Shown here: positions 7,285 through 50,059 of the stretch, piece after piece
Layout: every line of letters starts with the position of its first letter
Numbering within the stretch: the stretch's first letter is position 1
IMG/VR virus record: IMGVR_UViG_2740891848_000001
Coordinates: 1 to 64,000 of that record
Reading direction: 5' to 3' (one strand)
DNA: 64,000 bases
Source: a virus
Taxonomy: Duplodnaviria; Caudoviricetes
The notes under the pieces: generated by a model
Database searches by the model: none
The model's input: only the letters and a program-made list of their open reading frames with translations
Told to the model about the DNA's origin: nothing
Translations under genes and position numbers: made by a program

Positions 7285-7328
7285 CTTCGGTTCAGGGCCG
7301 GTGGTGGACGGCCCCTCCTGTTTATCGT

Positions 7329-7904
7329 TTAGGAGTTGCGTGCGTCCAGACCGCCCTTGTCTGCTCTTGCTTCAGCAGCGACGTTCGAGTAGGCATCGGG
7401 GAAGCGTTCGCGGAGCTTGGCGATGTTTTCCTCCATGATCTCTTCGATCGAGAAGGCAAGTGCATCACATGCGTGTGCTACCGCACAAACGATGTTGAGC
7501 AGCCCGCGCATAATGGACTCTCTCGACGACGCATGACCCAAGTTCGGAAGACCGAAGGCGATGAACCCGGTCTCGATGGACAAGCGGAAAGAAACCAGCT
7601 TCAGCTTCTCCGTGAGCGAATGGCTGTCGAAGTCGTCGAACAGAAATTGATACTCCGGGATGGTGTAGTTCAACGCGTCACACGCGATTGCAACGTACCA
7701 GAGTGTGTCGCCCAGTTCTTCGCGCATGTTTTTGATGAACTCAGGGCTGATCGCCTTACCGTAGATCGCAACCCTTTTCACTGTGGTGGTGAACTCGCCT
7801 CCTTCGGTGGCCAGACCGAGGATGGCGTGCTCAAGGCGCAGAGAAGCCGTGGCCAACGGCTTCTCTGTGCGGAGAGCGAGCGGAACATATTGCTGGAAGT
7901 TCAT
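7329..7904 (-). CDS. MazG-like nucleotide pyrophosphohydrolase with a degenerate internal duplication
   Basis: GLATEGGEF...EELGDTLWY MazG motif; ACDAL repeated; C-terminal NIAKLRERFPD. Confidence 0.8.
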   Translation of the reverse strand: MNFQQYVPLALRTEKPLATASLRLEHAILGLATEGGEFTTTVKRVAIYGKAISPEFIKNMREELGDTLWYVAIACDALNYTIPEYQFLFDDFDSHSLTEKLKLVSFRLSIETGFIAFGLPNLGHASSRESIMRGLLNIVCAVAHACDALAFSIEEIMEENIAKLRERFPDAYSNVAAEARADKGGLDARNS

Positions 7905-7927
7905 GGTCTATCTGTAGTGGTGGTGAA

Positions 7928-8275
7928 TCAATAAGTCTCGGGCGGCGCTGTGAACCACAGCCGGCGCGCGACGACTTCCTCAACGGGGAAGGCATACTGG
8001 ATTAGGTAGCCTTCATCCATCTTCTGCATAAGCGTCAACTCCCCCTTGTCGTGCTTGATCTTGGAGATTGCCAACCGTCCAAGATCCGTATCGGGCCAAC
8101 GACGCTCGGCGCGGTTGCGTCGAGCGATGATGTGGGAGTAGTGCTTCGGGTCTCCCCAGCCCGCGAGCGGTAGCTCGCGCATCACTTCAGCAACACGCTC
8201 CACGGTGGTGTCGAGGAGCGTAGCGATGTCGGGTGGGGTGTAGTTCTGATTCAGTAGAGTCTTGATGTTTTCCAT
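7928..8275 (-). CDS. phage hypothetical protein with possible N-terminal HTH
   Basis: 115 aa; PPDIATLLDTTVERV resembles an HTH. Confidence 0.6.
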   Translation of the reverse strand: MENIKTLLNQNYTPPDIATLLDTTVERVAEVMRELPLAGWGDPKHYSHIIARRNRAERRWPDTDLGRLAISKIKHDKGELTLMQKMDEGYLIQYAFPVEEVVARRLWFTAPPETY

Positions 8276-8285
8276 ATCGCTCAGT

Positions 8286-12036: not shown

Positions 12037-12481
12037 GTTGGTTGGCCAGAAGTTGTGAAAACAGCACATGGGAAGAGATACGGTGGTGGTCGATCTCTGC
12101 CCACTTCATCGACTTTGTGGTGTGGTCGATGATGTGCGACGCGTGGACTGCGTACCAGATACCTACCGACTCGCGTCGGAGGAAGAAGTAGTAATCCCCG
12201 CCTGCTGCTACTGCCTTGCGTGCTGCGCGCCACTGGTTCGTGGCAATCATGCTGAAGGGAAAGGACGGCTCTTTTACCGTGCTCTTCACTTCGGCGTAGA
12301 ACATGCGTTTATCCCAGGTGACGACAAAGTCAGCTGGTTGGGCATCCTTGATTGCTCGATTGAGGCCAGTGGCGCCGCGCACATGCGCCGTGTCGGTAAG
12401 CCGCTCTACTGCTGCGCGCTTGCCGAAAGGCGCAAAGAAAGAGGCGAACTCTTCCTCTGCATCCTTCCAGACTTGCTTCAT
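11978..12481 (-). CDS. RecU-like Holliday junction resolvase (PD-(D/E)XK nuclease)
   Basis: PADFVV...YAEVKS catalytic pattern; C-terminus overlaps the next gene by 59 nt. Confidence 0.7.
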   Translation of the reverse strand: MKQVWKDAEEEFASFFAPFGKRAAVERLTDTAHVRGATGLNRAIKDAQPADFVVTWDKRMFYAEVKSTVKEPSFPFSMIATNQWRAARKAVAAGGDYYFFLRRESVGIWYAVHASHIIDHTTKSMKWAEIDHHRISSHVLFSQLLANQHDNQMPRLHGRLGNDRHSL

Positions 12482-18828: not shown

Positions 18829-19045
18829 TGTAAAAGCTCCAGTTTCATTAGCCAGGTTTCTGTTTCGTACTGCCCTCGCTGCTAAGGTGGTGGACTCAGC
18901 GGCGAGTTCGAAGATCATACGTTCGACCTTCTAACTATTCAATCGCATCTATATGCTAGTTGCGACTGATAGATCCGCTTATGTGTAGCTACGCACATTC
19001 GTTTGTTGACGCTTCCAGAACAGCACTTGCAAGTAACCGCTATTC

Positions 19046-22874: not shown

Positions 22875-22950
22875 GTTTCGATCCATTAGATGAAGTGAAG
22901 AACAACATGGCCGGCGGTGGTGGGCGCCGGCCATGCTGCTTGATGCGGTA

Positions 22951-23643: not shown

Positions 23644-25182
23644 TTGGGGATGATCCCGATGACGATGATTGGCAAAGTGCGGCGGATGTTCCACCGCCAG
23701 AACAAATCGGTACGCGAGATAGCGCGTCTCACAAGCCTGTCGCGCAACACGATTAGCAAATACCTGAGCATGGAGATTCAGGAAGAACCGAAGTATCAGC
23801 GGCGCTCGCAGTCGACCCGGCTGACACCGTTTCACGAGGCGCTGGTGCAGGCGCTCAGCGTGGACGCAAGGCGGCCGAAGAAAGAGCGGCGCACCGCCTG
23901 GATGCTGTTCCAGGAGGTCAAGGCGAACGGCTACGATGGCTGCTATTCGCGGGTGACCGATTTCATCCGGAGCTGGCGGCAAGGCGAAGGCCAAGCGGTT
24001 TCGAAGTCGGCGTTTGTGCCGCTGCAATTCGAGCTGGGCGAAGCGTTCCAGTTTGATTGGTCCGAGGAAGGACTGGTTGTCGGCGGCATTTACCGCAAGC
24101 TGCAGGTGTCGCACATGAAGCTGTGCGCGTCGCGGGCATTCTGGCTCGTGGCCTACCCAAGCCAGGGTCACGAGATGCTGTTCGACGCCCATACGCGCTC
24201 GTTCACGGCCTTCGGCGGGGTGGCCCGTCGTGGCATCTACGACAACATGAAGACGGCGGTCGACAAGGTTCACAAAGGCAAGGGCCGCACAGTCAATCCG
24301 CGTTTCGCAGTGATGTGTTCGCATTACCTGTTCGATCCGGACTTCTGCAATGTCGCCAGTGGCTGGGAGAAAGGGGTCGTCGAGAAGAATGTGCAGGACA
24401 GCCGCCGGCGTATCTGGATCGAAGCGCGCGAGCAGCGATTCGGCAGTTTCGCCGATCTGAATGCATGGCTGGCGAGCCGGTGCCGGTCGTTGTGGGAGCA
24501 GGTGAAGCACCCGGACTATCGGGACCTGAGCGTTGCCGACGTGTTCGAGCAGGAGCGCGCGCATCTGATGCCGATGCCAACACCGTTTGACGGTTACGTT
24601 GAACGCGCGGCCCGGGTGTCGTCTACCTGCCTTGTGGTGATCGGGCGCAACCGCTACTCGGTACCCTGCGAATTTGCAGGCCAGATGCTCAGCACGCGGC
24701 TCTATCCGGGTCGCGTCGTGGTGGTGGGCGATGACGCGGTGGTGGCCGAACATGACCGTCTGGCCGACGAAGGTCTGGTGCGCTACGACTGGCAGCATTA
24801 CATCCCGCTGATCCAGCGCAAGCCCGGCGCCCTGCGCAATGGCGCGCCGTTCCTGGATATGCCCGAGCCGCTGCAGCGCCTGCGTCGGGCGTTACTACGC
24901 GAGCCAGGTGGTGACCGGGTAATGGCTAAGGTTCTGGCGCTGGTACCCGAAAGCGGTCTGGATGCCATAGTGATTGCAGTCGAACTTGCATTGGAGCAGG
25001 CGCCGCCCTCCGGGCGCGTGAGCATCGAGCATGTGGTGAATGTGCTGTCGCGCATGCGCAGCGTGGAGATGCCGCCGAAGATCGATACGGCGCTACAGTT
25101 GACGACACCGCCGCTTGCCGACACATCGCGATACGACGGGCTGCGCCCAGTGCTCCAACAGCCGGAGGCCGGTCATGCTTGA
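23644..25182 (+). CDS. istA: IS21 transposase
   Basis: N-terminal HTH; QFDW, YDNMK and KGVVE DDE motifs. Confidence 0.95.
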
Positions 25183-27335: not shown

Positions 27336-27373
27336 GATGTGGTGGTGATGATTTGTTAAGGACGAACGCATAG

Positions 27374-30884: not shown

Positions 30885-30885
30885 G

Positions 30886-31634: not shown

Positions 31635-31636
31635 GG

Positions 31637-32703: not shown

Positions 32704-32939
32704 TACGCAGGCTCCTCGACAAGTGCAGGTCTGCACGATTCGACGTACTCGCTGGTGTGGAAGATGGTCTCAACGCGCTGCATGCCGGCGACGAAGTGTT
32801 CCTTCTGCACGTAACCCGTGCCGCCTTCGTTGGCCAGCTGCTTGGCGTGGGCGATCGCGTTCTTCGACGAGTTGAATGGGCGCGTTCGATATGCGCCCGA
32901 CTTCGTCGTGATTCGGGTGCGATAGATCGGCTTGCTCAC
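32703..32939 (-). CDS. phage early hypothetical protein
   Basis: Likely GTG start at 32939 (MSKPIYRTRITTK). Confidence 0.5.
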   Translation of the reverse strand: MSKPIYRTRITTKSGAYRTRPFNSSKNAIAHAKQLANEGGTGYVQKEHFVAGMQRVETIFHTSEYVESCRPALVEEPA

Positions 32940-32984
32940 AATTTTTGTCCTATAACTTGGAGATCGAACCTTCAAGGAACGATC

Positions 32985-33167
32985 ATGTGGATCTGTATTC
33001 GCTGCCATAGGGAAATCGAGTTCCCGGCCAATCAACCTGAGATTGATAGCTTCGGCGTCTATGTCTTGTGCCCGCATTGCGGCCGACGGAACACGCTCAC
33101 CAACGTTGGCAAGCGCGGTCGAATTGCTTTGGCCCAAGCGCCGGAAAGAAAAGCGAAGCGTCAGTGA
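32985..33167 (+). CDS. small zinc-ribbon protein on the opposite strand (moron-like)
   Basis: MWICIRC...LCPHC; AAGGA RBS; TATAAC at 32951; locally AT-rich. Confidence 0.6.
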   Translation: MWICIRCHREIEFPANQPEIDSFGVYVLCPHCGRRNTLTNVGKRGRIALAQAPERKAKRQ

Positions 33168-33805
33168 GTGAGGGTGTCGCGCTGTGCCCAATAAGCCGCC
33201 TCTGCGCGTTCCTTCTTCAGCGTGTCAAGCGCTTCGTTGACCAGCTGCTCGACGATCTCTTCCAGATACCCGTCATCACTGTCTTCGACGCCGCCGAGGC
33301 AATCGGTGTAACCGTCCTCGTGAGCACGCTTGCTACCCTCTTCGTCCGACAATCGCGTGATCTCGACGATCTGCCAGTGCCAGCGGTTTTCACACCAGCC
33401 GCGCATGTGCTCGAAGTCGCGACGCACGGATTCAGCAGTGACCTCGCCTTTCGTGAGCGGCTTCCACGGGCCAGGCAGCTCCTGCAAGATGTGTCGGTTG
33501 CCGGGGCCAGGTTGTGCGACCTTCGTACGCCGCAGACGCTGGAGCAGTTCCGCCTTGTACTCGTCGCTCAAGCCCCAACCTTCTTTCTTCGCCTTCTTCA
33601 TCGTTTCGGCAAAGTCGTAGAAGCGTTTGCTACCGCGATCAGAGCTGAGCGTCCACTCGCCGGGATGCTTGTCACGTCGCGTCCAATCACTGACGATGCC
33701 GTGGCAGTCATGCTCTTCCCACGGTGCGCCCCTGTCGGTGTCTTGCGTGAAGTTCACACGAAAGCGAAAGCCTTCACGCTCGATGATGTCGCCGTCGAAG
33801 ATCAT
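33161..33805 (-). CDS. phage early hypothetical protein
   Basis: 214 aa; PWEEHDCHG and GWCENRWHW motifs. Confidence 0.7.
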   Translation of the reverse strand: MIFDGDIIEREGFRFRVNFTQDTDRGAPWEEHDCHGIVSDWTRRDKHPGEWTLSSDRGSKRFYDFAETMKKAKKEGWGLSDEYKAELLQRLRRTKVAQPGPGNRHILQELPGPWKPLTKGEVTAESVRRDFEHMRGWCENRWHWQIVEITRLSDEEGSKRAHEDGYTDCLGGVEDSDDGYLEEIVEQLVNEALDTLKKERAEAAYWAQRDTLTH

Positions 33806-34173
33806 TGCTCGATCTCCTCTTCTTCATCTTCATCATCCGGAAACTGCACGCCGAGTTTCTTGGCCAGCTCGGTTGCTTTCTCGCGGATCTCGATCGTGCC
33901 GAGCGGCGCCGAGAGATTGTTGAACTCGCCATTGCGGCTGTAGCAGTCGATCAGCTCGGCGAGGAAGTCGGCGACGCCGCCAATCAAGTCCTCGTCGCTC
34001 ACAGCCTCGATGTCCGCGATCTTGGCCGTCAGCTGCGCACGATCCTCGTCGGTGTAGTGCTGACGCTCGTCGCTTTCCATACGAGACAGGTCATCGCGCA
34101 ACGTGGCCAGCAGTTCGCTTTCCACGTAAGCCTTAACCGCTGCGGGGTTGGCAAAGAATTCCAGTGCCATCAT
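33802..34173 (-). CDS. acidic phage early protein
   Basis: 123 aa, very Asp/Glu-rich; coupled overlaps. Confidence 0.65.
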   Translation of the reverse strand: MMALEFFANPAAVKAYVESELLATLRDDLSRMESDERQHYTDEDRAQLTAKIADIEAVSDEDLIGGVADFLAELIDCYSRNGEFNNLSAPLGTIEIREKATELAKKLGVQFPDDEDEEEEIEQ

Positions 34174-34382
34174 TACCTCCGATAGATTTCACGGCGCGCA
34201 GCTTTCCGAGCAGCATTGCCGCTCATGCCTTGCGCCTTGTACTTGTCGATCGTTTGTCGGCGCTCACGGCGTTCCTCGACATCCGGGATTGCTGTGTCGC
34301 GAGTGAGTTCGTCAATCAGCCGCAATGCCGAGGCAAGCTGCTGTTCGAGTCGCGTGATGCGAAGCTCGTGGTCATCAGGCAT
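34173..34382 (-). CDS. phage early hypothetical protein
   Basis: 69 aa, coupled overlaps. Confidence 0.55.
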   Translation of the reverse strand: MPDDHELRITRLEQQLASALRLIDELTRDTAIPDVEERRERRQTIDKYKAQGMSGNAARKAARREIYRR

Positions 34383-34662
34383 TGGACGTGTCCTCTGCGT
34401 ATGCCGACTCGATGCGCTCGTTTGTGTGCGAGCAGATCATGTCGCCGTCCTCCCAGTTGATGTCCATCGCGATCACGTACCAGCCGCTGTGCTTGTCGCG
34501 GTTGATGATTGCGTCTCGAATCAAGGCGGCGTTTTCCTGTGCTGCTTTGAACGACAGCGGTTCACAGTCGTTGCAGAGGAAGTAATATGGGTAGCCACCG
34601 GGCCATGCGTACGGCCCGATGTCCAGCGCCTTGTTAAAGTCAAAGACGTGGCGGATGTTCAT
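34375..34662 (-). CDS. phage early hypothetical protein
   Basis: YAWPGGYP...DCEPL...CSH...IESAY pattern; start ATG 34662 after GGAGAAGG. Confidence 0.65.
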   Translation of the reverse strand: MNIRHVFDFNKALDIGPYAWPGGYPYYFLCNDCEPLSFKAAQENAALIRDAIINRDKHSGWYVIAMDINWEDGDMICSHTNERIESAYAEDTSNA

Positions 34663-34777
34663 GTTGACCTTCTCCAGTAGGTCCAACGGTAGCCACGCTG
34701 CACGCGGTGGTGCAGCACGTTCGAGAACCCGCCGCAAGCGTAGAACTCGCGGCGAGTGATCCGTGTGTAGCCAGCCA

Positions 34778-35074
34778 TTAGAGGAACGGGTAGATGATCG
34801 AACCTTCAAACTGCACGTCGATCGAGATCTTTGCGTTGTAGTCACGGCGAACGGCCCAAATGGTGGCGCCGGTTTCCTTCTCGAAGTCGCGCAGCATGGA
34901 CTCGAACTTCAAGGCAAGCAGTTGCGCTGCCGTCTTGATCTCGCGACCGTGGTACGGGGGTGGCGGCGGTACGTCTTTTACGAGGGAGAGCGTGGGAGCC
35001 GCTGCGCTCTGTTCGAGCGTTTCAGCGAGAACTTCAACTGCGGGTTGGCCAGCTTCGACGGTGGTGGTCGTCAT
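34778..35074 (-). CDS. phage early hypothetical protein
   Basis: 98 aa; preceded by GAGGATCAAATC. Confidence 0.6.
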   Translation of the reverse strand: MTTTTVEAGQPAVEVLAETLEQSAAAPTLSLVKDVPPPPPYHGREIKTAAQLLALKFESMLRDFEKETGATIWAVRRDYNAKISIDVQFEGSIIYPFL

Positions 35075-35122
35075 GATTTGATCCTCAAAATGTGCAATGT
35101 CTGCACGTTGTGGTGGTGGGTG

Positions 35123-35407
35123 TTACTCGAGTCCGTACTTCAGCTTGTTCATGGCCCAACCGGCATAGCCAATGTCGGTGTTGCCAATCGCGACCTGTTC
35201 GCGCCATTGCTCCTTCGGGTACAGCTTCTCGACCAGGGTGCGCGCTGTCCTGATCGTGTTGTCAACTTCCTGAACGGCAGCTTCAGCGGCCGACACTAAC
35301 TGACGCTTCTCGTGCGCGTCGGTGAAGATGTCGTTCGCGAGAGCGTCACTCAGTTCATCCGATGCGACGAGCAGGTCATGCAACATCATCTTCAGTTCTT
35401 TGCTCAT
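35123..35407 (-). CDS. phage early hypothetical protein
   Basis: 94 aa, GGAG RBS. Confidence 0.6.
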   Translation of the reverse strand: MSKELKMMLHDLLVASDELSDALANDIFTDAHEKRQLVSAAEAAVQEVDNTIRTARTLVEKLYPKEQWREQVAIGNTDIGYAGWAMNKLKYGLE

Positions 35408-35751
35408 TGCTTGGTCTCCTTGCGCAGCTTTGATGCTTTACGTGCGCGCTTGGCTTTAGCTGCCTGAATGCGCAGATGATCCTGTTCAGTGAATTCCTTC
35501 ACGGGCGCCGGTTTGGCCACGGCTTCGCGGCGGGTCGGGTAGATCGGGAAAGTTAGGTCGTGGCGTGTGAGCGATTGCAGGCGTGTGAGCTGTGCCATGC
35601 GGCTGTAATCGCCGCCTCCGATCACTACGACGCGCTCAGTGTCAGCAGGCCGCTCAAACTTGACATCAATGCCGTTCAGCTTCAGATCCTCAGCGATGCC
35701 TTCGAACGTCAGCTCGTCGTCAGTGAAAATGGCGATTCGTGTCTCGCTCAT
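35404..35751 (-). CDS. phage early hypothetical protein
   Basis: 115 aa, coupled overlaps. Confidence 0.6.
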   Translation of the reverse strand: MSETRIAIFTDDELTFEGIAEDLKLNGIDVKFERPADTERVVVIGGGDYSRMAQLTRLQSLTRHDLTFPIYPTRREAVAKPAPVKEFTEQDHLRIQAAKAKRARKASKLRKETKQ

Positions 35752-36014
35752 GCAGGCACCGCCTCAGTGATTGCGTATGTGTAGCGCGCCGAGCCGAGCT
35801 TGCCGTCCATTGTGATGACGATGCCGCACTGCGCGGAGAGACGGTTGATGAAGTCTTCGAAGCTGTGGAAGTTCCGCGTATCGACGTTCTCGACCATCAT
35901 CTCTTCGAGCACGACATGAATCGCGGGGCCAGCGTAGGAAACTCTCTTCTTCATGTCAGCGAGCATGTCGCCGAAGAAGTGGAAGTATCCGATCGGGTTC
36001 GTGGTGGTGGACAC
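35748..36014 (-). CDS. phage early hypothetical protein
   Basis: GTG start preceded by AAGGATCAAAACTC. Confidence 0.55.
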   Translation of the reverse strand: MSTTTNPIGYFHFFGDMLADMKKRVSYAGPAIHVVLEEMMVENVDTRNFHSFEDFINRLSAQCGIVITMDGKLGSARYTYAITEAVPA

Positions 36015-36049
36015 GAGTTTTGATCCTTGTAGAACGTGCAGTTCTGCAC

Positions 36050-36361
36050 TTAGTGATGTGTGATTCGCAATACGGGCGTGACCGGGTCGTTCGCAGCTGG
36101 AGCTTCAAACTTCTTCCAGCGCTCAACCTTCGGCATCGGACAGCGGCGCTGCACGACACGCACAATCCGCTCAGCTACTTCACGCTCAGCAGGGGTGAGC
36201 TTGTCGAAACCCTTGCCGGTGCGTACATCGCACATGGCAAGTGGATAGCTCGTCGGTAACGCGTAAAACGCTTGGTACAAGACGATGATTTCCACATCCA
36301 TCATCTCGGCTTCAGTCATTCCAATCACGCTCACTACGACCTTCGGGTTGGGGTTCGCCAT
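36050..36361 (-). CDS. phage early hypothetical protein
   Basis: About 103 aa, GAGG RBS. Confidence 0.55.
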   Translation of the reverse strand: MANPNPKVVVSVIGMTEAEMMDVEIIVLYQAFYALPTSYPLAMCDVRTGKGFDKLTPAEREVAERIVRVVQRRCPMPKVERWKKFEAPAANDPVTPVLRITHH

Positions 36362-36386
36362 GCTCACCTCTCAGTTGTGTTCTTGG

Positions 36387-36590
36387 CTACGAGCTGCGAC
36401 GGACGACTATCTTGTCGTCATACTTGTCGTGCTCGATTAGCGTTGTTCGCACGTATTGAGCCGTGCAGTTGCGGTTGTAGAAGACGGTGTCGATCTTTTC
36501 GACACCGAGAAACACGTCCCAACTGATATGTGCAGTCTCTGCACTTATCGGTTGGCGACGTACCAGTTCGAGACTTGCGCGGAGCATCAT
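36387..36590 (-). CDS. phage early hypothetical protein
   Basis: 67 aa; VFY...VRTTLIEHD.YD pattern. Confidence 0.55.
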   Translation of the reverse strand: MMLRASLELVRRQPISAETAHISWDVFLGVEKIDTVFYNRNCTAQYVRTTLIEHDKYDDKIVVRRSS

Positions 36591-36817
36591 TCGACGTTCA
36601 CTCCATTGACTTCGACGAGATCAAAATCGCCGTCATAGCTTGCTTCGGCCAGTAGCGGCTTGTCATCAAGCATGCCGAAGTTCGCATCCGCACACTCCAG
36701 AACGTCGCGCAGTTTCGCGGCGCCCTCTTCGGGAGTAGCCGCGGTCACTCGCATCGACGCCATCAGTTTCACGTCGAAAAGGTATTCGTTCAGTTGGGCC
36801 ATCGTTGCCTCACGCAA
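36587..36817 (-). CDS. phage early hypothetical protein
   Basis: 76 aa; EYLFDVKL motif. Confidence 0.55.
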   Translation of the reverse strand: MREATMAQLNEYLFDVKLMASMRVTAATPEEGAAKLRDVLECADANFGMLDDKPLLAEASYDGDFDLVEVNGVNVE

Positions 36818-37106
36818 AAAGCGGTTCGAGCGGCATGTGCATCGACATGTCGCTGAACTGCTTCAGATGACTCATGAGAACTCGCGGGTTCTGGCGGTTG
36901 GCCAGCATCGTGCGCAGCACGTTGTCGATGATGGCGAGCGCTGCCTGGTCAGTCACCGCGCCGTGCTCAGCTGCATAGAGCTTGAGCATCAATGCGCGCA
37001 GACGCGCCGGGATCGCGGTGTTGACTTCGTGCGCCGCGCATTCAGCCATCGTCTTGAATTCGAGGCCGTCGCAGGAGCGGTAGCGTTTTAGTTCACGCAT
37101 GATCAT
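36810..37106 (-). CDS. phage early hypothetical protein
   Basis: 98 aa; Y.SCDG..F.T...C..HE resembles the next gene (paralogue-like N-terminus). Confidence 0.55.
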   Translation of the reverse strand: MIMRELKRYRSCDGLEFKTMAECAAHEVNTAIPARLRALMLKLYAAEHGAVTDQAALAIIDNVLRTMLANRQNPRVLMSHLKQFSDMSMHMPLEPLFA

Positions 37107-37461
37107 CCTCGTTCAGTCGACGCTCGATCACAGCCTGAAGCGGCGTAACGCCCTTCTCAGCCAGGATGCGTTGAGCAGTCCCACGGTTGGCACGCTCACG
37201 ATCGAAGTCGCTCACCACTTCCGCGTTTTCAAGGAAGTCCGACAGGATGCCGATGACGTTCTGGGCGTCGCCGAGGATGGCATCAGCGATGCGTTGTGCG
37301 TCGTGATCGCTCAGATCGCTGATGCACTTTTCCTTGACCAGCTTCGCGAGTTGGTGGGGGATCGCGTAGGTGTATTCGTGGCGAATTGCCGCTTCGTGGT
37401 CGTCATGCCTCTGACCATCGCGCGTCTCATAGCGCTTGATGACCTTCAGGTGCTTGTTCAT
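37093..37461 (-). CDS. phage early hypothetical protein
   Basis: 122 aa; YETRDG..H.D...A..HE; preceded by GGATCAAGACTA. Confidence 0.6.
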   Translation of the reverse strand: MNKHLKVIKRYETRDGQRHDDHEAAIRHEYTYAIPHQLAKLVKEKCISDLSDHDAQRIADAILGDAQNVIGILSDFLENAEVVSDFDRERANRGTAQRILAEKGVTPLQAVIERRLNEDDHA

Positions 37462-37571
37462 TAGTCTTGATCCAGAGATTGGAGTTGTTCTTGAAGACGC
37501 AGCGGGTCAACCGGCAGTTCTTGCGAACGCAGGTATTCGCTGACCGTCTCGGCCAGAAAGTCAAAGCTCAT
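37461..37571 (-). CDS. small hypothetical protein (36 aa, not in ORF track)
   Basis: MSFDFLAETVSEYLRSQ...; TAATG overlap with next gene; preceded by TCACCACCACA. Confidence 0.45.
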   Translation of the reverse strand: MSFDFLAETVSEYLRSQELPVDPLRLQEQLQSLDQD

Positions 37572-37613
37572 GTGATTTATGTGGTGGTGATTAAGTGCAG
37601 AGCTGCACTATTC

Positions 37614-38006
37614 CTACAGCGCGATAGGCATCGACATCACGTTGTCGAACACGTCGTGCAGATAGTCCTTGATCGCGTTGCGATCGCGGCCTGTGATCTT
37701 GATGACATAGCCGTATTCGAGCGATGGCGTGACGATGACCTTGTGCTCAGTCCAGCCGTCATACATCCCCACGGAGTTCATGTGGTGATAGTCGGCTTGA
37801 AACACGAGTTTGTTGCTCTTGCATTCGTCGTCGAGCAGCTTCACGCCGCTGTCGATTCCGGAGCCGCTGGGCAGCAGCTTGAGCATGGCGTCGAGGCGTT
37901 CTTCGTGACGAGGAACCCATGACTTGTGCGACTCAGTCGCTGAGGATGACTTACAACGCTCGATGGTTGCCAATTGCTGTGCAATGGCTTGATAAAGCGG
38001 CTTCAT
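37614..38006 (-). CDS. phage early hypothetical protein
   Basis: LPSGSGIDSG and YHHMN..G.YDGWT motifs; start ATG 38006. Confidence 0.7.
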   Translation of the reverse strand: MKPLYQAIAQQLATIERCKSSSATESHKSWVPRHEERLDAMLKLLPSGSGIDSGVKLLDDECKSNKLVFQADYHHMNSVGMYDGWTEHKVIVTPSLEYGYVIKITGRDRNAIKDYLHDVFDNVMSMPIAL

Positions 38007-38171
38007 AACGTGTTTCCGTGGTGGTGGAAGTTTTGATCCTAGAAGCCTCATGGCGGGCCTCCGGGGACTACAGTGCTACGCTGGTATTGCCCAACCCCCA
38101 CAAGCCTGCGGTGAGGGCTGTCATGCGGTCTGCGGCCAGGTGCAGACCTGCACATTCTGTTGCGTTTGCTG

Positions 38172-38594
38172 CTACAGCACAGCGAGACCGACGATCACTA
38201 CTGCGCAGAGGGCCAGCCCTGCGAAGATGATGCGGTCCCACCTGGCTTGCGCCTTCTGCTCGGCCGGCGTCAGTTGCACGACGACGCGGTGCGAGACGGA
38301 GTAGGAGCGCAGGCGTCCTTCAAGCGTCGGATCGAAGAGGCCCGGAGCCGGAGCTGGAGCAGGAGCGCGGAGTGCGCGGACTGCTTCAGGAGCTGGAGCC
38401 GGAGCACTGCCTTTAGCTGAGGCAGAGAACGCTACGTCGATCTGCTCGATGGATGCGAGCCATTGAGTCTTCTCGAAATATACGGTCGCACAGGGCGCAA
38501 CAGCTGCCAGTGGCGTTGGAGCTGTAGCGCGTTTCGTGTGACTGCGCACATTCGAGGAGTGCAAGGATAGCGGAAAAACGTTGGAAGTTTTCAT
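38172..38594 (-). CDS. hypothetical protein with AP repeats and C-terminal membrane anchor
   Basis: APAPAP runs; hydrophobic end IIFAGLALCAVVIVGLAVL. Confidence 0.6.
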   Translation of the reverse strand: MKTSNVFPLSLHSSNVRSHTKRATAPTPLAAVAPCATVYFEKTQWLASIEQIDVAFSASAKGSAPAPAPEAVRALRAPAPAPAPGLFDPTLEGRLRSYSVSHRVVVQLTPAEQKAQARWDRIIFAGLALCAVVIVGLAVL

Positions 38595-38605
38595 GTGTGG
38601 TGGTG

Positions 38606-39091
38606 AACTATCAGATAGTTGTGAGATTCGACCGCGCGGGCCAGCGCGCTGGGGTCAAAAACGGTGTGCGAATAGACTTTCGATTTTTACTTCTTAAGGA
38701 CACTTATCTCTATCTGATAATTGACGTCCTCACTCGTGGATCGACTTTGAAAGTCTATTCAACACCCCCTTCTCTTTTCTTGGGGGAAAGGGAAGGAAGA
38801 AAAAGAAGAAGAAGTAGGAAGCTAAGAGATTGATTTGAAGGGCGAAAAACGCCGCTTTCAGAACTATCTGATAGTTTGCGCACGGCGCGATGTTTTGCCC
38901 GTGGTCTGACACAACGAGCTTGTGGTCTCCAAGTGGGTTATCACTGGGGCTGGAGCGCAACGGCGACTTATCCACAACTGCGGAGCCTCCCGGTTACGCG
39001 TTGGACACTCAACCCATAGGTGGAACAACGCTACCCCTCCACCGCACGCGACATCCACACGCTTCACTCGCCGCGCCAACTATCAGATAGT
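38606..39091. repeat. cluster of AACTATC-W-GATAGTT palindromes
   Basis: Sites at 38606, 38862, 39078, variant at 38710; related sites at 12549 and 44849. Confidence 0.75.
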
Positions 39092-39105
39092 GCAGATCTG
39101 CACCT

Positions 39106-39546
39106 TCAACGCCGCGCACGCAACGGAGCGATTTCGTCCCGCACGCGCCCACCCCACTTCTCGGCCAGCGCTCCCAAAGCCATGCGAACGCCGTCCTTAC
39201 GCCACACGTCAGCGCGCTGCCGCTCCTGCTCCTGGCGCTCTGCGACCTGTACGCGCTTGCGGGTCAGCTTCCGCTCCACATGCGTGCTGTAGCGGCGTGG
39301 CTCGGGAGCCGGAGCGGTAGCGGGCGACCATTCGGAATACCGCGCCCACTGCGGCAACTCGTCCAGCTCCATGTCGCCGGCATCCACGCACGCCCGGAGT
39401 GACGCCAACGTGGCCAGGCGCTCGGCGCGCTCGCCGTGTTGCTGATCGAAGTCGACATGCACGGTATAGGCTTTAGCCGCATCAACCCCGGCCGTGATCG
39501 CTTTTGAGTAATTCGAGATGGTTGGATCGAGATAACGCATGGTCAT
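39106..39546 (-). CDS. phage early hypothetical protein
   Basis: 146 aa; an operator palindrome lies 13 nt upstream of the ATG. Confidence 0.55.
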   Translation of the reverse strand: MTMRYLDPTISNYSKAITAGVDAAKAYTVHVDFDQQHGERAERLATLASLRACVDAGDMELDELPQWARYSEWSPATAPAPEPRRYSTHVERKLTRKRVQVAERQEQERQRADVWRKDGVRMALGALAEKWGGRVRDEIAPLRARR

Positions 39547-39767
39547 TTACCTGAAAAGGTGCAGAACTGCACTTTGTCCGGAATCAAATCGGCGCGGCCT
39601 ATAAGGAGAGCCAGGCATGGCTAGTCAACCACGACAGCAGGACGCTACAGCGGCCCAATCAGGCGCAATGGCGTGCTGATGCGGTTGACTCGCAATCCGG
39701 CGCGGAAAACGCGCCCTTTATACATACAGCGAAACACAACCAGCGCTTTCGCGCCGGTCGATGCTGC

Positions 39768-40469
39768 TTAAGCCTTCAGGAGTTCCGGCGTAGCCGCCAG
39801 TTCAGCCAGTTCCGCATACATGGCCCGCGCATATTCGCGCCGTTGTCCTTCGGACAACATCTTGAGCATGGCGCGCGTCTGAAACACGAGATCGGAAACC
39901 GTGCCAAGCATCGCGCTCACCGATTCAACCGGGTCCGCGTTATCGGCTTGCTGCGGCTTGCTTACTTCTGGCTCGCTAGGCGTGCGTGGCGTGGCTTGCT
40001 TGGGCTTCTTTTCCGCTGTCGGTTTGCTGAAACCGAATTCAACAAAAAGCGCGTCCGTGCTATGACACTTAAGACCAAAGAGCCAAGCCTTAACTACTGC
40101 GGTTGCGTCCTTATCATCGTCCGCATTCAACACGTCAAGCATGTTGAGACCCTTTGCGGCCGCTTGCTTGCAGATACCAACAGCCTTTTCAACATAGCGC
40201 TTAGCCGTGCCCATGCAAGCATCCGAAAGCGTGGCGCGCGCTACTTCGTCCAATGCTTCCCACGCTTTCGCGCCTTCGCGCTGCGCCGCCAGCTCAAATG
40301 CGACCGGGCGAACGTTGTTAGCGGCAAAGCCACGCTCTGCAAACGAACCTTGGCGCAAGTAGACCGCGACCAATGCAGCATAAGCGCCGCCGACAACAGA
40401 TTTTTCAGCGGAAACAATCGCCTTAACTGCGAACTTGATTTGTTCAAGCGTCGGAGTGTTGATAGACAT
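39768..40469 (-). CDS. first gene of the early leftward operon, hypothetical
   Basis: GGAG RBS before ATG 40469 (MSINTPTLEQ); two operators upstream; lower GC than neighbours. Confidence 0.65.
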   Translation of the reverse strand: MSINTPTLEQIKFAVKAIVSAEKSVVGGAYAALVAVYLRQGSFAERGFAANNVRPVAFELAAQREGAKAWEALDEVARATLSDACMGTAKRYVEKAVGICKQAAAKGLNMLDVLNADDDKDATAVVKAWLFGLKCHSTDALFVEFGFSKPTAEKKPKQATPRTPSEPEVSKPQQADNADPVESVSAMLGTVSDLVFQTRAMLKMLSEGQRREYARAMYAELAELAATPELLKA

Positions 40470-40662
40470 TGTAGAAACTCCAGTAATAAGCGCTTCATTG
40501 CGCCGATTAAGCCAGTATGAAAAGTGCAGCTCTGCACTTTCCTTCTCTTTGTCAAAAGTGCAGACGCTGCACTTTTGAACATTGCGGGCGCACGAATGCC
40601 GACCCGCAGCAGACCCATAGGTGGTGGTGGTCTGCTTCGCTCTCCCGTCAGGGATTAGTAAC

Positions 40663-40797: not shown

Positions 40798-41361
40798 TTG
40801 GCCAAAGAGAAGTTCACTAGGGAACAGTTCACTGTCGAGCTTGCGAAAGAGTGGTTTTCGTATGATACGAACGCAGGACTTGTTATCCGCATCAAGAATC
40901 CGACGCGTGGGCCTAAGACGGCCGGCACACGCGCTGGAGCGCTCCACAAGCCCAGTGGGATGCGCCAGGTCATCTTCCAAGGCGTGAGCGTCTACGAGCA
41001 GCAGCTGGTCTGGGCGCTAGTCACCGGCGAGTGGCCCGCAGGCAAGCTAAAGTTTAAGGACGGAGATCCGTTAAACACCCGTTTTGACAATCTATGCGCG
41101 GCGGCGAACACCGCGGAGAGTTACGAAGCATTACATTCTGGCACTGAGTTGGGGCAGACACCTCTCTCGGGAGTAGTTCCTACCTCAAGCGGGAAATTTA
41201 AGGCTCAAATTTTTCGCGAGTGGATGATCTATCTAGGAACGTTTGAGACACCGGAGTTAGCTAGTGAAGCATACTTGCGGGCCAAGTCAGTCCTTCACTC
41301 TCCCCTGAACAGGGCCAAGTCGACACACGAACTCTTGGAAGAGCTATCAGAGTCTCCTTAA
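40798..41361 (+). CDS. HNH-AP2 homing-endonuclease-like protein with degenerate HNH active site
   Basis: W.LVTGEWP...DGDPLN.RFDNL HNH-like frame and SGV...GKFKAQI...IYLGTFET.E.A.EAY AP2 domain; AGGAG RBS, TTG start. Confidence 0.75.
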   Translation: MAKEKFTREQFTVELAKEWFSYDTNAGLVIRIKNPTRGPKTAGTRAGALHKPSGMRQVIFQGVSVYEQQLVWALVTGEWPAGKLKFKDGDPLNTRFDNLCAAANTAESYEALHSGTELGQTPLSGVVPTSSGKFKAQIFREWMIYLGTFETPELASEAYLRAKSVLHSPLNRAKSTHELLEELSESP

Positions 41362-41416: not shown

Positions 41417-41445
41417 TTGCAAAGGACTTTGGAGATGTTTATAGT
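41417..41445 (+). promoter_or_regulatory. sigma70 promoter of the putative sRNA
   Basis: TTGCAA (41417-41422), 17-nt spacer, TATAGT (41440-41445). Confidence 0.75.
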
Positions 41446-41450
41446 TCGGT

Positions 41451-41615
41451 CTCAAGTGCTGCGTGATCTGTGGTGGTGAGCGCAGCAGCTGAGACGCCAG
41501 TCTCAGTCATGACTTAGGGGTGGCCAGCTCCGAAGTCGACCGTCCTAGACGGTAGTTTTGATCCATTGTAGAAGCTCAAAAAGCCCATCCGATTAGCTAT
41601 CGAATGGGCTTTTTC
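41451..41615 (+). ncRNA. putative multi-hairpin phage small RNA complementary to start-associated motifs
   Basis: No ORF; promoter upstream and terminator downstream; hairpins 41457-41487, 41489-41506, 41511-41537, 41539-41553 and a weak one at 41554-41577; loops match repeated mRNA-leader motifs. Confidence 0.7.
41578..41615. terminator. bidirectional intrinsic terminator
   Basis: A6-GCCCAT-C-CGAT/ATCG-A-ATGGGC-T5. Confidence 0.85.
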
Positions 41616-41708
41616 CTTTTCAACCTACGAATTGTCATTCAAGTGTGCGAACTGCTGTGTTTACATACAGTAGTCAGTAGTCGTTCTCTTTGTTGAACAC
41701 TTGAACGT

Positions 41709-48296: not shown

Positions 48297-48378
48297 AGAA
48301 AATCTTTGACTCCTAAATAGCCCGTCGAAATAATACGGGCTACTTTCACCGGGCAGTCATTTACGCACCACACTGGTT

Positions 48379-49509
48379 ATGCCGAAGAGCGTTCCAATCA
48401 CACCGCGGATTCAAAACCTGATCACCCAGAACAACGGTGGTGAGGCAGTCGACTACGGCAACATCGTGGTCTTCGAAGCGTCGGTGCTGAACACTCGCCC
48501 GCTGACGAAACCCGGCTCGATCTTCGATCAAGGCCGAGTCTCGGATGACACGCTCAAGCAGATGGCGACGTACCTGAACAGCGGGGGTTTCGTGCCGCTC
48601 CAGACGTTGCATCCCAATGGCGACGAGCTGCCGCTCGGCCGCTTCTTCTACGGTGAAGTCCTGCCGTCTACGCTCGGCGATGGGTCGAGCGAGCTGGTCT
48701 GCCTCTTCTACCTGCCGCGCACCGACGAGAACGTTCCGAAGCTGGACAACGGGATCATCGACGAGGTCAGCGTCGGCTTCGTCGGCCAACAGCTGCTCTG
48801 CTCGCAGTGCGGCTGGGACTATCGCAGTCCGGACGCGTCGCTGCTCAACTTCTTCGACCGCGTCTGCGCAAACGAGCACACGCTCGGCGACGATGGCACG
48901 TATCTCAAGATCAACGGTCTCGACCGCTGGACGGAAACGTCGCTCGTGTCGAAGGGCGCCGCACACAACGCAAAGATCATGGGCCGCACTAAACAGCGGC
49001 TCGGCCAGGAGCAGTACGAACGCCTGGCAGCTTCGGGTATCGCCCCCGAGCAAATTTTGTTGACCGCCACCACAACCGATACCCGGAGTAAGAAAACGAT
49101 GGACAAGGAAATGATCGAGATGGTCAATCAGCTCGCTGAGCTGAAGGCTGATGCCAAGCATCACACCATCGCACTGACGGCCAAGGACGGCGAGATCGCC
49201 ACCCTCAAGGCTTCGGTCGAAGCAAAGGGCGCTGAAATCGCGAAGCTGAAGGAAGGCACGGAGCTGAAGGAAGCGACGACCAAGCTGACGGCAGCTGAAG
49301 CGCAAGTCACGGAGCTGACGGCTTCGAAAACGACTGTCGAAACCGAGCTGGCTGAAGTCAAGGCAAAGCTCGCAACGGCGGAAACGCAGATCGCTACCCT
49401 GCAAGCGGGCGCCGGTAACGGCGGTCGTTCGCAAGGCGCTGGCGCAGGCAACTCGGCCGGCAATGCTTCGACCGCCGCTTCGGCGTTCAAAGCAGCACCG
49501 CGTCGCTAA
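48379..49509 (+). CDS. prohead protease / scaffold
   Basis: LQTLH, EVSVG and ETSLVSKGA protease-like motifs; C-terminal Ala/Glu/Lys coiled coil. Confidence 0.75.
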   Translation: MPKSVPITPRIQNLITQNNGGEAVDYGNIVVFEASVLNTRPLTKPGSIFDQGRVSDDTLKQMATYLNSGGFVPLQTLHPNGDELPLGRFFYGEVLPSTLGDGSSELVCLFYLPRTDENVPKLDNGIIDEVSVGFVGQQLLCSQCGWDYRSPDASLLNFFDRVCANEHTLGDDGTYLKINGLDRWTETSLVSKGAAHNAKIMGRTKQRLGQEQYERLAASGIAPEQILLTATTTDTRSKKTMDKEMIEMVNQLAELKADAKHHTIALTAKDGEIATLKASVEAKGAEIAKLKEGTELKEATTKLTAAEAQVTELTASKTTVETELAEVKAKLATAETQIATLQAGAGNGGRSQGAGAGNSAGNASTAASAFKAAPRR

Positions 49510-49533
49510 ACACTCGTAACCCGAGAGGAAAAA

Positions 49534-49941
49534 ATGAGCAACGTAATCGGTAATGGCGTATCGCTTCGTGGGATGTACCACGACGACTTCCAATACCCGT
49601 TCCTGCTCGCCGCTGGCATCACCAAGGCCGATGAAGGTAAGGCTGTCACTGTCGATACGAGTGCAGTGAACACGGTGAAGTTGGCAGGCGACGGCGATCG
49701 GATCATTGGGCGTCTGGAAGTGGTTGAAGTCCGCGTCCAGGAGGGCATCAACATCGGCACCGTGTCGATCATGGGCGGTCTGGACTTCCCGGCGAAAGCG
49801 GGCTATGTCCCGGCAGCTGGCGACAACCTGGTTGGCGCAGCAGGCGGATTGGTCAATAAGGCAGGCGCGGGCGTGAGCACCGGCTGGATCTTCTTGGGCG
49901 AACTCAGCCCGACCGGCAACCCAGTCCTGGTCAAGCTGTAA
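49534..49941 (+). CDS. head decoration / cement protein
   Basis: 135-aa Gly/Val-rich protein between scaffold and capsid. Confidence 0.65.
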   Translation: MSNVIGNGVSLRGMYHDDFQYPFLLAAGITKADEGKAVTVDTSAVNTVKLAGDGDRIIGRLEVVEVRVQEGINIGTVSIMGGLDFPAKAGYVPAAGDNLVGAAGGLVNKAGAGVSTGWIFLGELSPTGNPVLVKL

Positions 49942-50059
49942 AGCTGCCGGCCCTGTCCACCACCAGGGCTGTCAGTGACCGAAACGTAAGAAGAAGCTGC
50001 TGGACCCGTCCACCACCGGGGCCAGCAGTGGTTGAACCCAACACCACAATGGATCAAAC

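What the first reader, a model, noticed from the sequence alone, without database searches (positions are those of the whole stretch)
7295..50028. Motif A is also displayed as an 8-nt loop (U/C)CCACCAC on unrelated stems
Seen: five hairpins with different stem sequences but the same loop type in mRNA sense: 7295-7314 (before thyX), 22906-22935 (11-bp stem, before the KTSC gene), 40609-40635 (early operon leader, larger loop ACCACCACCUAUG), and 49950-49969 and 49997-50028 (tandem, before the major capsid gene). Keeping the loop while changing the stem points to selection at the RNA level. Before thyX the hairpin lies between AGGAG and the ATG, so folding would restore normal SD-start spacing and opening it would break it. 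Inference: loop-loop (kissing) contacts with the GUGGUGG loop of the sRNA, or a binding site for an RNA-binding protein.
Basis: partly seen in the sequence, partly recalled or inferred. Interest (0 to 1): 0.8.

Follow-up and report, generated by a model that had tools for sequence, protein, structure and literature searches.

The report
Phage mRNA hairpins displaying sRNA-complementary loop
A temperate Burkholderia-type phage and about a dozen relatives keep small RNA hairpins in front of key genes whose stems mutate freely but whose loop is always CCACCAC, the exact complement of an invariant loop in a small RNA the same phages encode; this points to an untested RNA-against-RNA control of many phage genes.

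Summary
Observation confirmed and extended. Four of the five hairpins fold as described, each with an 8-nt loop N-CCACCAC. The fifth (40609-40635) is weak. I found a further one at 18875-18906.

In the 81.8-kb genome, N-CCACCAC sits in an 8-nt loop on a stem of at least 4 bp at 10 of 56 motif sites, against 1.2 expected (P 3e-7).

In relatives with 82-87% capsid identity, the tandem hairpins before the capsid gene keep the loop while the stems change. Thirteen of 21 pairs show compensatory changes, and U.G pairs fit only the mRNA strand. The thyX and 18.9-kb hairpins are conserved too.

The proposed partner is real. A promoter-to-terminator sRNA at about 41417-41617 (+) has covarying stems and an invariant loop holding GUGGUGG. 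It occurs only in phages that carry the motif.

Best reading (about 0.5): the loops are docking (kissing) sites for this sRNA and belong to a regulon of about 40 sites. The sign of regulation is unknown.

The thyX idea of restored SD spacing is not supported, because the upstream AGGAGG is not conserved. A loop-binding protein and an SD-independent ribosome pad remain rivals. No RNA data exist.

The scan noted analogous designs (private leader tag plus complementary sRNA loops) on other, unrelated phage DNA: e1-5777743 and e1-5392721.

The parts
7294..7315 (-). Hairpin between mazG-like and thyX genes. It has a 6-7 bp stem and loop UCCACCAC (7301-7308), and ends 9 nt before the thyX AUG.
   Evidence: RNAfold. 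It is conserved in G001, G002, G003 and G005, with one compensatory pair and first loop base U or A.
18875..18906 (-). Newly found 5'-terminal leader hairpin: CUCGC-c-GCUGAG / loop UCCACCAC / CUUAGC-a-GCGAG. It lies just downstream of a TTGAAT-17-TATGAT promoter (18942..18914), about 45 nt before the AUG at 18831.
   Evidence: Relatives G001, G002, G003, G006 and the MSh1 prophage keep the loop on different stems. G005 has the loop UGACACCACCG. JWF has a hairpin there with an unrelated loop.
22901..22940 (-). Hairpin before the KTSC-domain gene: 16-bp stem (11-bp core 22906-22935), loop CCCACCAC (22917-22924).
   Evidence: RNAfold z -5.2; KTSC Pfam hit. At this site relatives keep the motif but the hairpin is seen only in G000, G002 and perhaps G003.
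40609..40635 (-). Early-leader hairpin with a 7-bp stem and 13-nt loop ACCACCACCUAUG. This is the weak member.
   Evidence: It appears only in the centroid fold, z -0.4. The closest relative G002 has a clean 7-bp stem with loop UCCACCAC at the same place. Other relatives have none within 1.7 kb.
49948..49971 (+). First of the tandem hairpins before the major capsid gene: 8-bp stem, loop UCCACCAC.
   Evidence: Eight of 11 stem pairs show compensatory double changes across 11 relatives, while the loop core and the closing G-C are invariant.
49996..50029 (+). Second tandem hairpin: an outer 8-bp stem, a mismatch, an inner CCCG/CGGG stem, and loop UCCACCAC. It ends 31 nt before the capsid AUG (50060).
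   Evidence: The outer stem covaries, the inner 3-4 bp and the loop are invariant, and the first loop base is U, C or A.
12074..12098 (-). Possible member: 6-bp stem, 13-nt loop CGACCACCACCGU, ending 4 nt before the AUG at 12069. It probably overlaps the end of the upstream coding region.
   Evidence: kept in G002 and G005. It is uncertain because conservation may reflect coding.
41417..41617 (+). Proposed partner: an sRNA gene with promoter TTGCAA-17-TATAGT (41417-41445), four hairpins and a terminator. The first hairpin has a roughly 15-17-nt loop (U)GAUCUGUGGUGGUGA(G), with GUGGUGG at 41470-41476.
   Evidence: Across 11 homologues, 15 of 33 pairs show compensatory changes and the loop is invariant. 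The sRNA is present only in motif-bearing phages.

Best explanation
The hairpins are RNA structures on phage mRNAs, in leaders and intergenic spacers. Their job is to hold the heptamer CCACCAC single-stranded in an 8-nt loop, usually closed by C-G and G-C pairs. The loop is complementary to GUGGUGG in the invariant loop of the first hairpin of a conserved, constitutively promoted phage sRNA (about 41450-41617, + strand).

I propose that the two loops dock by a 7-bp loop-loop (kissing) helix. The same sRNA loop can pair over 9-12 nt with the unstructured form of the motif (YCACCACCACA) that lies 1-25 nt before some 30-40 start codons, so the hairpins are the structured members of one phage-wide sRNA regulon.

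Where the loop lies within the ribosome footprint (thyX, lysis gene), docking would block or otherwise modulate initiation. Where it lies further upstream (capsid tandem pair, 5'-terminal hairpin at 18.9 kb), docking would act as a high-affinity entry or titration site and could alter mRNA stability.

Shown here: the structures, loop invariance with stem covariation, strand, accessibility, complementarity and co-occurrence. Inferred: physical pairing, the sign of regulation (I lean towards repression, as a translational lock in the lysogen and a threshold during lytic growth), and any role for RNases or chaperones.
For: 1. The folds and the excess of loop display are confirmed.
2. Orthologous covariation with an invariant loop is seen before the capsid gene. 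Cells are 91.5% paired against 78.8% in shuffles. Thirteen pairs carry double changes (1 of 500 shuffles reaches this). The covariation score is 0.474 against 0.253 (0 of 500). Slid controls score 0.07-0.17. The thyX and 18.9-kb hairpins are also conserved.
3. U.G pairs (for example 6 of 11 sequences at two stem positions) are valid only on the mRNA-sense strand.
4. The partner sRNA is real: conserved -35/-10 elements, a terminator, 15 of 33 pairs compensatory, and an invariant first-hairpin loop in 11 homologues.
5. Co-occurrence holds. Every genome with the sRNA (G000-G006, G009, the B. paludis MSh1 prophage, L105) has the motif in leaders or loops. JWF-like phages have neither, and JWF shows no strand bias or leader enrichment.
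6. The motif is kept accessible. Mean unpaired probability is 0.80 against 0.46 for flanking windows (Wilcoxon 1e-10). It is 0.69-0.77 in relatives and 0.44 at JWF's chance CCACCAC sites.
7. The flanks of linear sites match the sRNA loop complement: A at -1 in 70%, C at -2 in 67%, and A, G, A as the top bases at +7 to +9. Enrichment of 7-mers covers UCACCACCACAGA and stops there.
8. Energetics are plausible: duplex -12.6 kcal/mol, target opening about 0, sRNA opening 2.6 kcal/mol.
9. One natural variant (G005, loop UGACACCACCG) lacks CCACCAC but is still 7-nt complementary to the sRNA in a shifted register.
Against: There is no expression or binding data.

The sRNA loop and the motif are invariant in all members found, so no trans-covariation test was possible. 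Co-occurrence therefore amounts to a single evolutionary gain.

The first loop base is mostly U, where A would extend pairing. The two closing pairs are conserved in about 70% of sites. Both features also fit a protein that reads a defined hairpin.

RNAalifold draws a weak 3-bp helix inside the sRNA loop that would cost about 2.6 kcal/mol to open.

Leaders with the motif mostly lack a Shine-Dalgarno sequence (1 of 15 against 28 of 66, P 0.008). This suggests the motif also has a positive role in initiation that sRNA pairing alone does not explain.
Confidence: 0.5

Rival explanations
1. The loops are binding sites for an RNA-binding protein, phage or host. Examples would be an antiterminator of the lambda N/boxB kind or a translational operator protein. 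The protein would read CCACCAC presented on a C-G/G-C closed stem, and the sRNA would be unrelated or would act only as a competitor.
For: The loop is invariant, the two closing pairs are conserved in about 70% of sites, and the first loop base is preferentially U rather than the A that would extend sRNA pairing. Three hairpins sit directly after promoters, as nut-like sites do: the early leader, 18.9 kb, and the lysis promoter. Several clade-specific proteins of unknown function exist.
Against: No RNA-binding domain was found in the clade-specific proteins. The unstructured sites, which are far more numerous, extend in sequence exactly along the sRNA loop complement. The G005 variant loop keeps complementarity but not the heptamer. 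A hairpin-specific protein would not explain about 35 linear sites.
Confidence: 0.2
2. CCACCAC is mainly an SD-independent ribosome landing or standby element: a C/A-rich, G-free, structure-free pad. Hairpins display it so that it stays open in GC-rich leaders, and the sRNA, if it acts at all, only antagonises it.
For: Motif-bearing leaders almost never have an SD-like tetramer (1 of 15 against 28 of 66, Fisher P 0.008). The motif occupies the SD position, and at thyX and the lysis gene the loop lies 9-20 nt before the AUG. Accessibility is strongly selected. From my own knowledge, CA-rich leaders are reported to enhance translation in E. coli.
Against: Burkholderia 16S rRNA has no GUGGUGG; the best matches are two buried 6-mers. 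A generic unstructured pad would not need an exact invariant heptamer. The capsid hairpins end 31 nt upstream of the start codon, and a separate GGAUCAA element sits at the SD position.
Confidence: 0.15
3. The signal acts at the DNA level. Single-stranded DNA hairpins or cruciforms would be read by the phage primase-helicase, by replication or packaging proteins, or as Chi-like sites, because the motif strand switches with the two divergent genome arms.
For: The motif is on the minus strand left of about 44.85 kb and on the plus strand to the right. That would be the lagging-strand template if an origin lies at the divergence point. GGTGGTGG resembles E. coli Chi (own knowledge).
Against: Sites cluster 1-25 nt before start codons rather than being spread along the arms. 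The stems use U.G wobble pairs, which are poor in DNA. The conserved partner is an RNA gene. The orientation relative to genes is opposite to that of E. coli Chi.
Confidence: 0.04
4. These are ordinary stabilising or terminator hairpins, or copies of a small repeat element, whose loops share a sequence by chance or common descent.
For: The 18.9-kb hairpin is 5'-terminal, like known mRNA stabilisers, and JWF has a hairpin there with another loop. JWF annotators called a hairpin before thyX a terminator.
Against: No U-tract follows any of them on the sense strand, and the terminator scan is at chance level. The stems are unrelated, so they are not repeat copies. The loops are invariant over stems that have turned over completely. 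The excess over chance is P 3e-7.
Confidence: 0.03

Closest known systems
Staphylococcus aureus RNAIII with rot and coa mRNAs: loop-loop contacts with hairpin loops in the target leader (own knowledge: Boisset et al. 2007)
   Same: One regulatory RNA contacts several mRNAs through hairpin-loop to hairpin-loop pairing of about 5-8 nt. Two target hairpins can be used in one leader. A C-rich strand pairs with a G-rich strand.
   Different: In RNAIII the C-rich loops are in the regulator and the G-rich SD loops are in the mRNA. Here the polarity is reversed, the motif is not the SD, the regulator is phage-encoded, and the targets are some 40 phage genes. An RNase III step is unknown here.
Cuckoo / CcsR1-4 RNAs of Alphaproteobacteria (PMC4615179; Rfam RF02791)
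   Same: In both, 2 to 4 adjacent hairpins each carry the same C-rich loop motif while the stems vary widely. This is the architecture seen before the capsid gene.
   Different: The loop there is CCUCCUCCC (anti-SD-like), not CCACCAC. Those are free sRNAs, whereas these are parts of mRNAs with no promoter or terminator of their own. The Rfam score here is 10.8 bits against a gathering score of 65.3, so this is not a member.
Plasmid antisense systems that start by kissing (CopA/CopT of R1, RNA I/RNA II of ColE1; own knowledge)
   Same: Fully complementary 6-7-nt loops on stable stems give fast docking, and regulation follows from a second step.
   Different: Those are cis-encoded, perfectly complementary pairs with one target. 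Here the regulator is trans-encoded, has only short complementarity, and has dozens of targets.
Phage immunity RNAs: P1/P7 c4 and P4 CI (own knowledge; Rfam C4 family)
   Same: A temperate phage makes a small structured RNA whose loops pair with short repeated sites in its own lytic transcripts at or near ribosome binding sites.
   Different: Those RNAs have two or three targets in one operon and are processed from the same transcript. No Rfam match was found here. Here the RNA has its own promoter and genome-wide targets, some displayed on hairpins.
Lambda N / boxB nut sites (own knowledge)
   Same: A small hairpin with a conserved loop lies in leaders just downstream of promoters.
   Different: boxB has a purine-rich pentaloop read by an arginine-rich peptide, with two sites per genome. 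Here the loop is an 8-nt C/A loop, there are many sites including linear ones, and no N-like protein was identified.

Membership tests
Intrinsic (Rho-independent) terminators | GC-rich hairpin followed directly by a U-run on the transcribed strand | tested here: not met
   None of the hairpins is called on its sense strand. The tails read gaaccgaag, cuucacuuc, ucagugacc and ugguugaac.
Cuckoo/CcsR RNA family (RF02791) | Two to four adjacent hairpins with variable stems | tested here: met
   Tandem pair before the capsid gene in 11 relatives.
Cuckoo/CcsR RNA family (RF02791) | Loop motif CCUCCUCCC and a score above the Rfam gathering threshold | tested here: not met
   The loop is N-CCACCAC. The cmscan score is 10.8 bits against 65.3, E 3.8.
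Kissing-loop sRNA target sites | Loop complementary to a loop of a partner RNA (at least 6 nt, Watson-Crick) | tested here: met
   CCACCAC against GUGGUGG at 41470-41476; 7 bp, -12.6 kcal/mol.
Kissing-loop sRNA target sites | Both loops single-stranded in the folded RNAs | tested here: met
   By prediction only. Target opening energy is 0.0-0.02 kcal/mol at four hairpins and 2.6 at thyX in long context. The sRNA loop costs 2.6 kcal/mol to open.
Kissing-loop sRNA target sites | Partner RNA is expressed and physically binds; regulation follows compensatory mutations | not testable with these tools
Kissing-loop sRNA target sites | Loop and partner loop change together between lineages | tested here: inconclusive
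   Both are invariant in all homologues found. Loop-independent pattern searches of IMG/VR and metagenomes found no variant-loop sRNA.
C4 / P4-CI type phage immunity RNAs (Rfam) | Match to the family covariance model | tested here: not met
   No Rfam family reached gathering score in the window, and there was no relevant sub-threshold hit at the sRNA locus.
Shine-Dalgarno elements | Complementarity to the 3' end of host 16S rRNA | tested here: not met
   Burkholderia 16S ends in GGAUCACCUCCUUU. No GUGGUGG occurs anywhere in the 16S sequence.
Lambda-type nut boxB | Purine-rich GNRA-like pentaloop on a 5-bp stem, with an N-type arginine-rich antiterminator | tested here: not met
   The loop is 8 nt and C/A-rich. 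No N-like or other RNA-binding family was found among the proteins scanned. The protein part was only partly tested.

The most novel reading that the evidence does not exclude
The phage clade runs a private translation-initiation code. Leaders that lack a Shine-Dalgarno sequence carry CCACCAC, either linear or loop-displayed. The phage sRNA would then be not a repressor but an adaptor. Its GUGGUGG loop would hold the mRNA while other conserved parts (the SD-like GAGGUG/GGGGUG beside its UGGCCAG loop, and UUUUGAUCC) engage the 30S subunit or the rest of the initiation region. Phage genes would thereby be translated through an RNA bridge that the host lacks.
Probability: 0.07. Interest if true: 0.95.

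Novelty: new variant of a known kind. Interest (0 to 1): 0.7.

Why it matters
Known phage regulatory RNAs act on one or a few sites. If this reading holds, a single sRNA with an invariant loop faces about 40 complementary sites in its own genome, and at the most conserved positions (capsid, thyX, a middle-operon leader, the lysis gene) evolution keeps the site on a hairpin loop while rewriting the stem.

If the pairing is real, it is a genome-wide post-transcriptional layer in a temperate phage, acting as an immunity lock, a timing threshold or an initiation aid. It could be tested directly with compensatory mutations in a culturable host, since a prophage of this clade sits in Burkholderia paludis MSh1.

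It also offers a compact, orthogonal tag-and-RNA pair for synthetic control. Together with analogous designs that the scan noted in unrelated phages, it suggests that private leader tags read by phage sRNAs may be a recurrent, undescribed strategy.

Tried and rejected
- Rfam at gathering score over the whole window found no family. Permissive scans of the sRNA and capsid-leader regions gave only chance-level hits.
- Terminator reading: rejected, because there are no U-tracts on the sense strand.
- 16S rRNA pairing: rejected, because there is no GUGGUGG in Burkholderia 16S. The MSh1 draft itself has no 16S.
- Chi-like or primase-site reading: set aside, because the sites sit next to start codons and the stems use wobble pairs.
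- thyX SD-spacing idea: the upstream AGGAGG is not conserved.
- Search for a candidate RNA-binding protein among clade-specific genes: Pfam and PHROGs gave only unknown-function families and ArdA.
- Trans-covariation test: an exact-loop search and a loop-independent pattern search of IMG/VR found only members with the same loop. The metagenome pattern search gave 8 chance hits and no homologue.
- Counting GGAUCAA against GGAUCGA before starts, to test covariation with the one sRNA variant (G001): too noisy to read.
- A scan for hairpin loops holding any 6-mer of the sRNA complement: dominated by chance matches.
- Public sequencing runs: no RNA holder is listed. There are only soil and rhizosphere DNA runs with partial shares, which I did not lay.
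- Literature searches for the motif, JWF-like phages and phage kissing sRNAs found nothing on this system.
Full report
**What the DNA is.** The window is the first 64 kb of an 81,839-bp phage genome. The phage is related to Achromobacter phage JWF, with about 72% nucleotide identity in the structural genes. It carries a tyrosine integrase (692-2020, +), a primase-polymerase, MazG, a ThyX-like gene and a KTSC gene. Close relatives include complete IMG/VR genomes, two of them classed as proviruses. A prophage in Burkholderia paludis MSh1 is another close relative. The phage is therefore temperate and probably infects Burkholderia. Genes left of about 44.85 kb are read on the minus strand and those to the right on the plus strand.

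**The observation.** All five sites hold the stated sequences.
- Folded on the mRNA-sense strand, four of them give the hairpins described, each with the 8-nt loop N-CCACCAC. These are 7294-7315(-), 22901-22940(-, 16 bp, z -5.2), 49948-49971(+) and 49996-50029(+).
- The fifth, 40609-40635(-), is weak. Its 7-bp stem with a 13-nt loop appears only in the centroid structure.
- CCACCAC occurs 48 times in the window against 6.5 expected, and nearly always on the sense strand.
- Taking every position of the genome as background, the exact loop N-CCACCAC is flanked by at least 4 bp at 10 of 56 sites (1.2 expected, P 3e-7). It is flanked by at least 6 bp at 4 sites (0.2 expected, P 5e-5).
- It is the commonest heptamer in 8-nt loops on stems of at least 6 bp.
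- I found one clear extra member at 18875-18906(-), a possible one at 12074-12098(-), and one beyond the window at about 72490-72515.

**Conservation.** This is the main new evidence.
- In eleven relatives with 82-87% capsid identity, the spacer before the capsid gene again holds two hairpins. Their stems are different sequences, but the loop core CCACCAC and the closing G-C pair never change, and the first loop base is U, C or A.
- On that alignment 91.5% of cells pair, against 78.8% in shuffles. Thirteen of 21 pairs carry changes on both sides (1 of 500 shuffles reaches this).
- The covariation score is 0.474 against 0.253 (0 of 500). Sliding the partners drops it to 0.07-0.17.
- Several stem positions are U.G in about half the sequences. 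These would be C.A on the other strand, so the fold belongs to the sense strand and fits RNA better than DNA.
- The thyX hairpin is kept in all four relatives that have the gene, with one compensatory pair.
- The 18.9-kb hairpin starts a few bases after a TTGAAT-17-TATGAT promoter. Five relatives keep it on different stems. JWF has a hairpin at that place with an unrelated loop.
- At the KTSC site the motif is conserved but the hairpin is not always present. The early-leader hairpin is shared only with the closest relative, where it is a clean 8-nt loop.
- JWF-like phages and more distant ones lack the hairpins and show no sense-strand or leader enrichment of the heptamer.

**What it is not.**
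- None of the hairpins is followed by a U-run on the sense strand, and the terminator scan is at chance level.
- The stems are unrelated, so they are not copies of a repeat.
- Rfam has no match. The nearest, the CcsR1 'cuckoo' model, scores 10.8 bits against a threshold of 65.3.
- Burkholderia 16S rRNA contains no GUGGUGG, so direct rRNA pairing is unsupported.

**The partner.** Another first-stage note pointed to a candidate sRNA at 41417-41615, and I tested it.
- The plus strand has a TTGCAA-17-TATAGT promoter and a terminator. In two lineages the terminator has a U-run only in this orientation.
- In an alignment of 11 homologues, 15 of 33 predicted pairs have compensatory changes. There are also G.U pairs that fit only this strand.
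- The loop of the first hairpin, (U)GAUCUGUGGUGGUGA(G), is invariant while its stem changes at three positions.
- Exact-loop and loop-independent searches of IMG/VR find this RNA only in this clade.
- Every genome that has it also has the motif in leaders and loops. One of these is G006, where a leader holds about 15 CCA repeats. JWF-like genomes have neither the sRNA nor the motif enrichment.

**Link between hairpins and sRNA.**
- The loops are 7-nt complementary to the sRNA loop. The duplex energy is -12.6 kcal/mol, the target opening cost is about zero, and the sRNA opening cost is 2.6 kcal/mol.
- The heptamer is kept single-stranded wherever it occurs in sense orientation. Mean unpaired probability is 0.80 against 0.46 for neighbouring windows (Wilcoxon 1e-10). 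It is 0.69-0.77 in relatives and 0.44 at JWF's chance copies.
- Loop display is thus one way of meeting a general rule that the motif must stay open.
- At unstructured sites the flanks follow the complement of the sRNA loop: C and A before the motif, then A, G, A after it. 7-mer enrichment spans UCACCACCACAGA and stops there.
- One natural variant loop (G005, UGACACCACCG) has lost CCACCAC but is still 7-nt complementary in a shifted register.

**What remains open.**
- Both loop and motif are invariant, so I could not test for matched changes. A metagenome search found no further homologues. Co-occurrence is therefore a single evolutionary event.
- In the hairpins the first loop base is mostly U rather than the A that would extend pairing. 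The two closing pairs are C-G and G-C in about 70% of sites. A protein that reads a defined hairpin would explain this as well.
- I found no RNA-binding domain among the clade-specific proteins, but most of them are of unknown function.
- Leaders with the motif almost never carry an SD-like tetramer (1 of 15 against 28 of 66, P 0.008; start sites approximate). The motif may therefore also help initiation by itself, and the sign of any sRNA effect cannot be read from sequence.
- No RNA sequencing run holding this phage is listed.

**Comparison with known systems.**
- The closest in mechanism are loop-loop sRNA-mRNA contacts such as RNAIII with rot, and the kissing step of plasmid antisense RNAs (own knowledge).
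- The closest in architecture are the cuckoo/CcsR RNAs, which have adjacent hairpins with one C-rich loop motif on variable stems (PMC4615179).
- The closest in biology are the P1 c4 and P4 CI immunity RNAs (own knowledge).
- This system belongs to none of these families. It differs in the polarity of the pairing, in the number of targets, and in the targets being the phage's own genes of all temporal classes.
- The scan's notebook lists analogous designs on unrelated phage DNA: e1-5777743 (CCGCCA loops with complementary sRNAs in a Streptomyces phage-plasmid) and e1-5392721 (a marine jumbo phage). I did not test these, and they are not evidence for this case.

**Verdict.** The RNA-level reading is well supported. 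The sRNA-kissing mechanism is the best explanation at about 0.5, with a loop-binding protein (0.2) and an SD-independent landing pad (0.15) as the main rivals.

Noticed in passing
window 41417-41617 (+): A conserved sRNA gene has three invariant single-stranded elements. These are the loop of its first hairpin (holding GUGGUGG), the loop of its third hairpin (UGGCCAG), and the 3' stretch UUUUGAUCC. Each is complementary to a motif that is over-represented in the phage. The gene sits next to an HNH endonuclease gene (40798-41361, +).
   Followed up: partly
window-wide, e.g. 7263-7269(-), 12043-12049(-), 27678-27684(-), 35046-35052(-): CTGGCCA occurs 39 times against 7 expected, with a sense-strand bias, and several copies lie 12-22 nt after start codons. 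It is complementary to the sRNA's UGGCCAG loop, but codon usage (Leu-Ala) was not controlled for.
   Followed up: partly
window 29888-40572 (-), e.g. 40521-40540 and 40561-40580: AAAGTGCAG-N3-CTGCACTTT palindromes recur in the early region, often just upstream of a CCACCAC leader. They look like operator sites or short bidirectional hairpins.
   Followed up: no
window 35056-35073 (-) and 35999-36016 (-): Two 5-bp hairpins carry the same 8-nt loop, and the start codon (AUG or GUG) forms part of the 5' arm, so the motif is read as Thr or Pro-Pro codons. Both are kept in relative G002, but 5-bp stems are near chance level.
   Followed up: partly
locus L061 (G006 69470-69509, minus strand): A relative has about 15 tandem CCA repeats in the leader of a small gene, an expansion of the same motif.
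   Followed up: no
genome 72440-72520 (+), outside the window: A conserved TTTGTA-17/18-TAAAAT promoter is followed at about +1 by the hairpin GGCACUC / ACCACCACCACA / GAGUGCU, which ends 2-5 nt before the start of the lysis-region gene. The stem is conserved across relatives, unlike the other hairpins.
   Followed up: partly
window, motif-bearing leaders: Leaders carrying the motif rarely carry an SD-like tetramer (1 of 15 against 28 of 66, Fisher P 0.008). Start sites were taken from longest ORFs, so the counts are rough.
   Followed up: partly
window 26754-27371 (-), 31259-31352 (-), 692-2020 (+): The window holds an ArdA antirestriction gene, a tRNA-Gly(GCC) gene and an integrase with an Arm-binding domain. 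The integrase leader also carries CCACCAC after a TATAAT box.
   Followed up: no
window 23644-25182: Gene calling is ambiguous here. A 512-aa plus-strand ORF scores better than the minus-strand 391-aa ORF. GC skew turns positive, and no relative has a match. This is possibly a foreign insert.
   Followed up: no
locus L046/L047 region (G005 68386, +): Relative G005 carries a ParA-like gene (N-terminus MPTIVFISPKGGVGKTT) preceded by a hairpin with a CCACCACAGAA loop. This hints at plasmid-like prophage maintenance in part of the clade.
   Followed up: no
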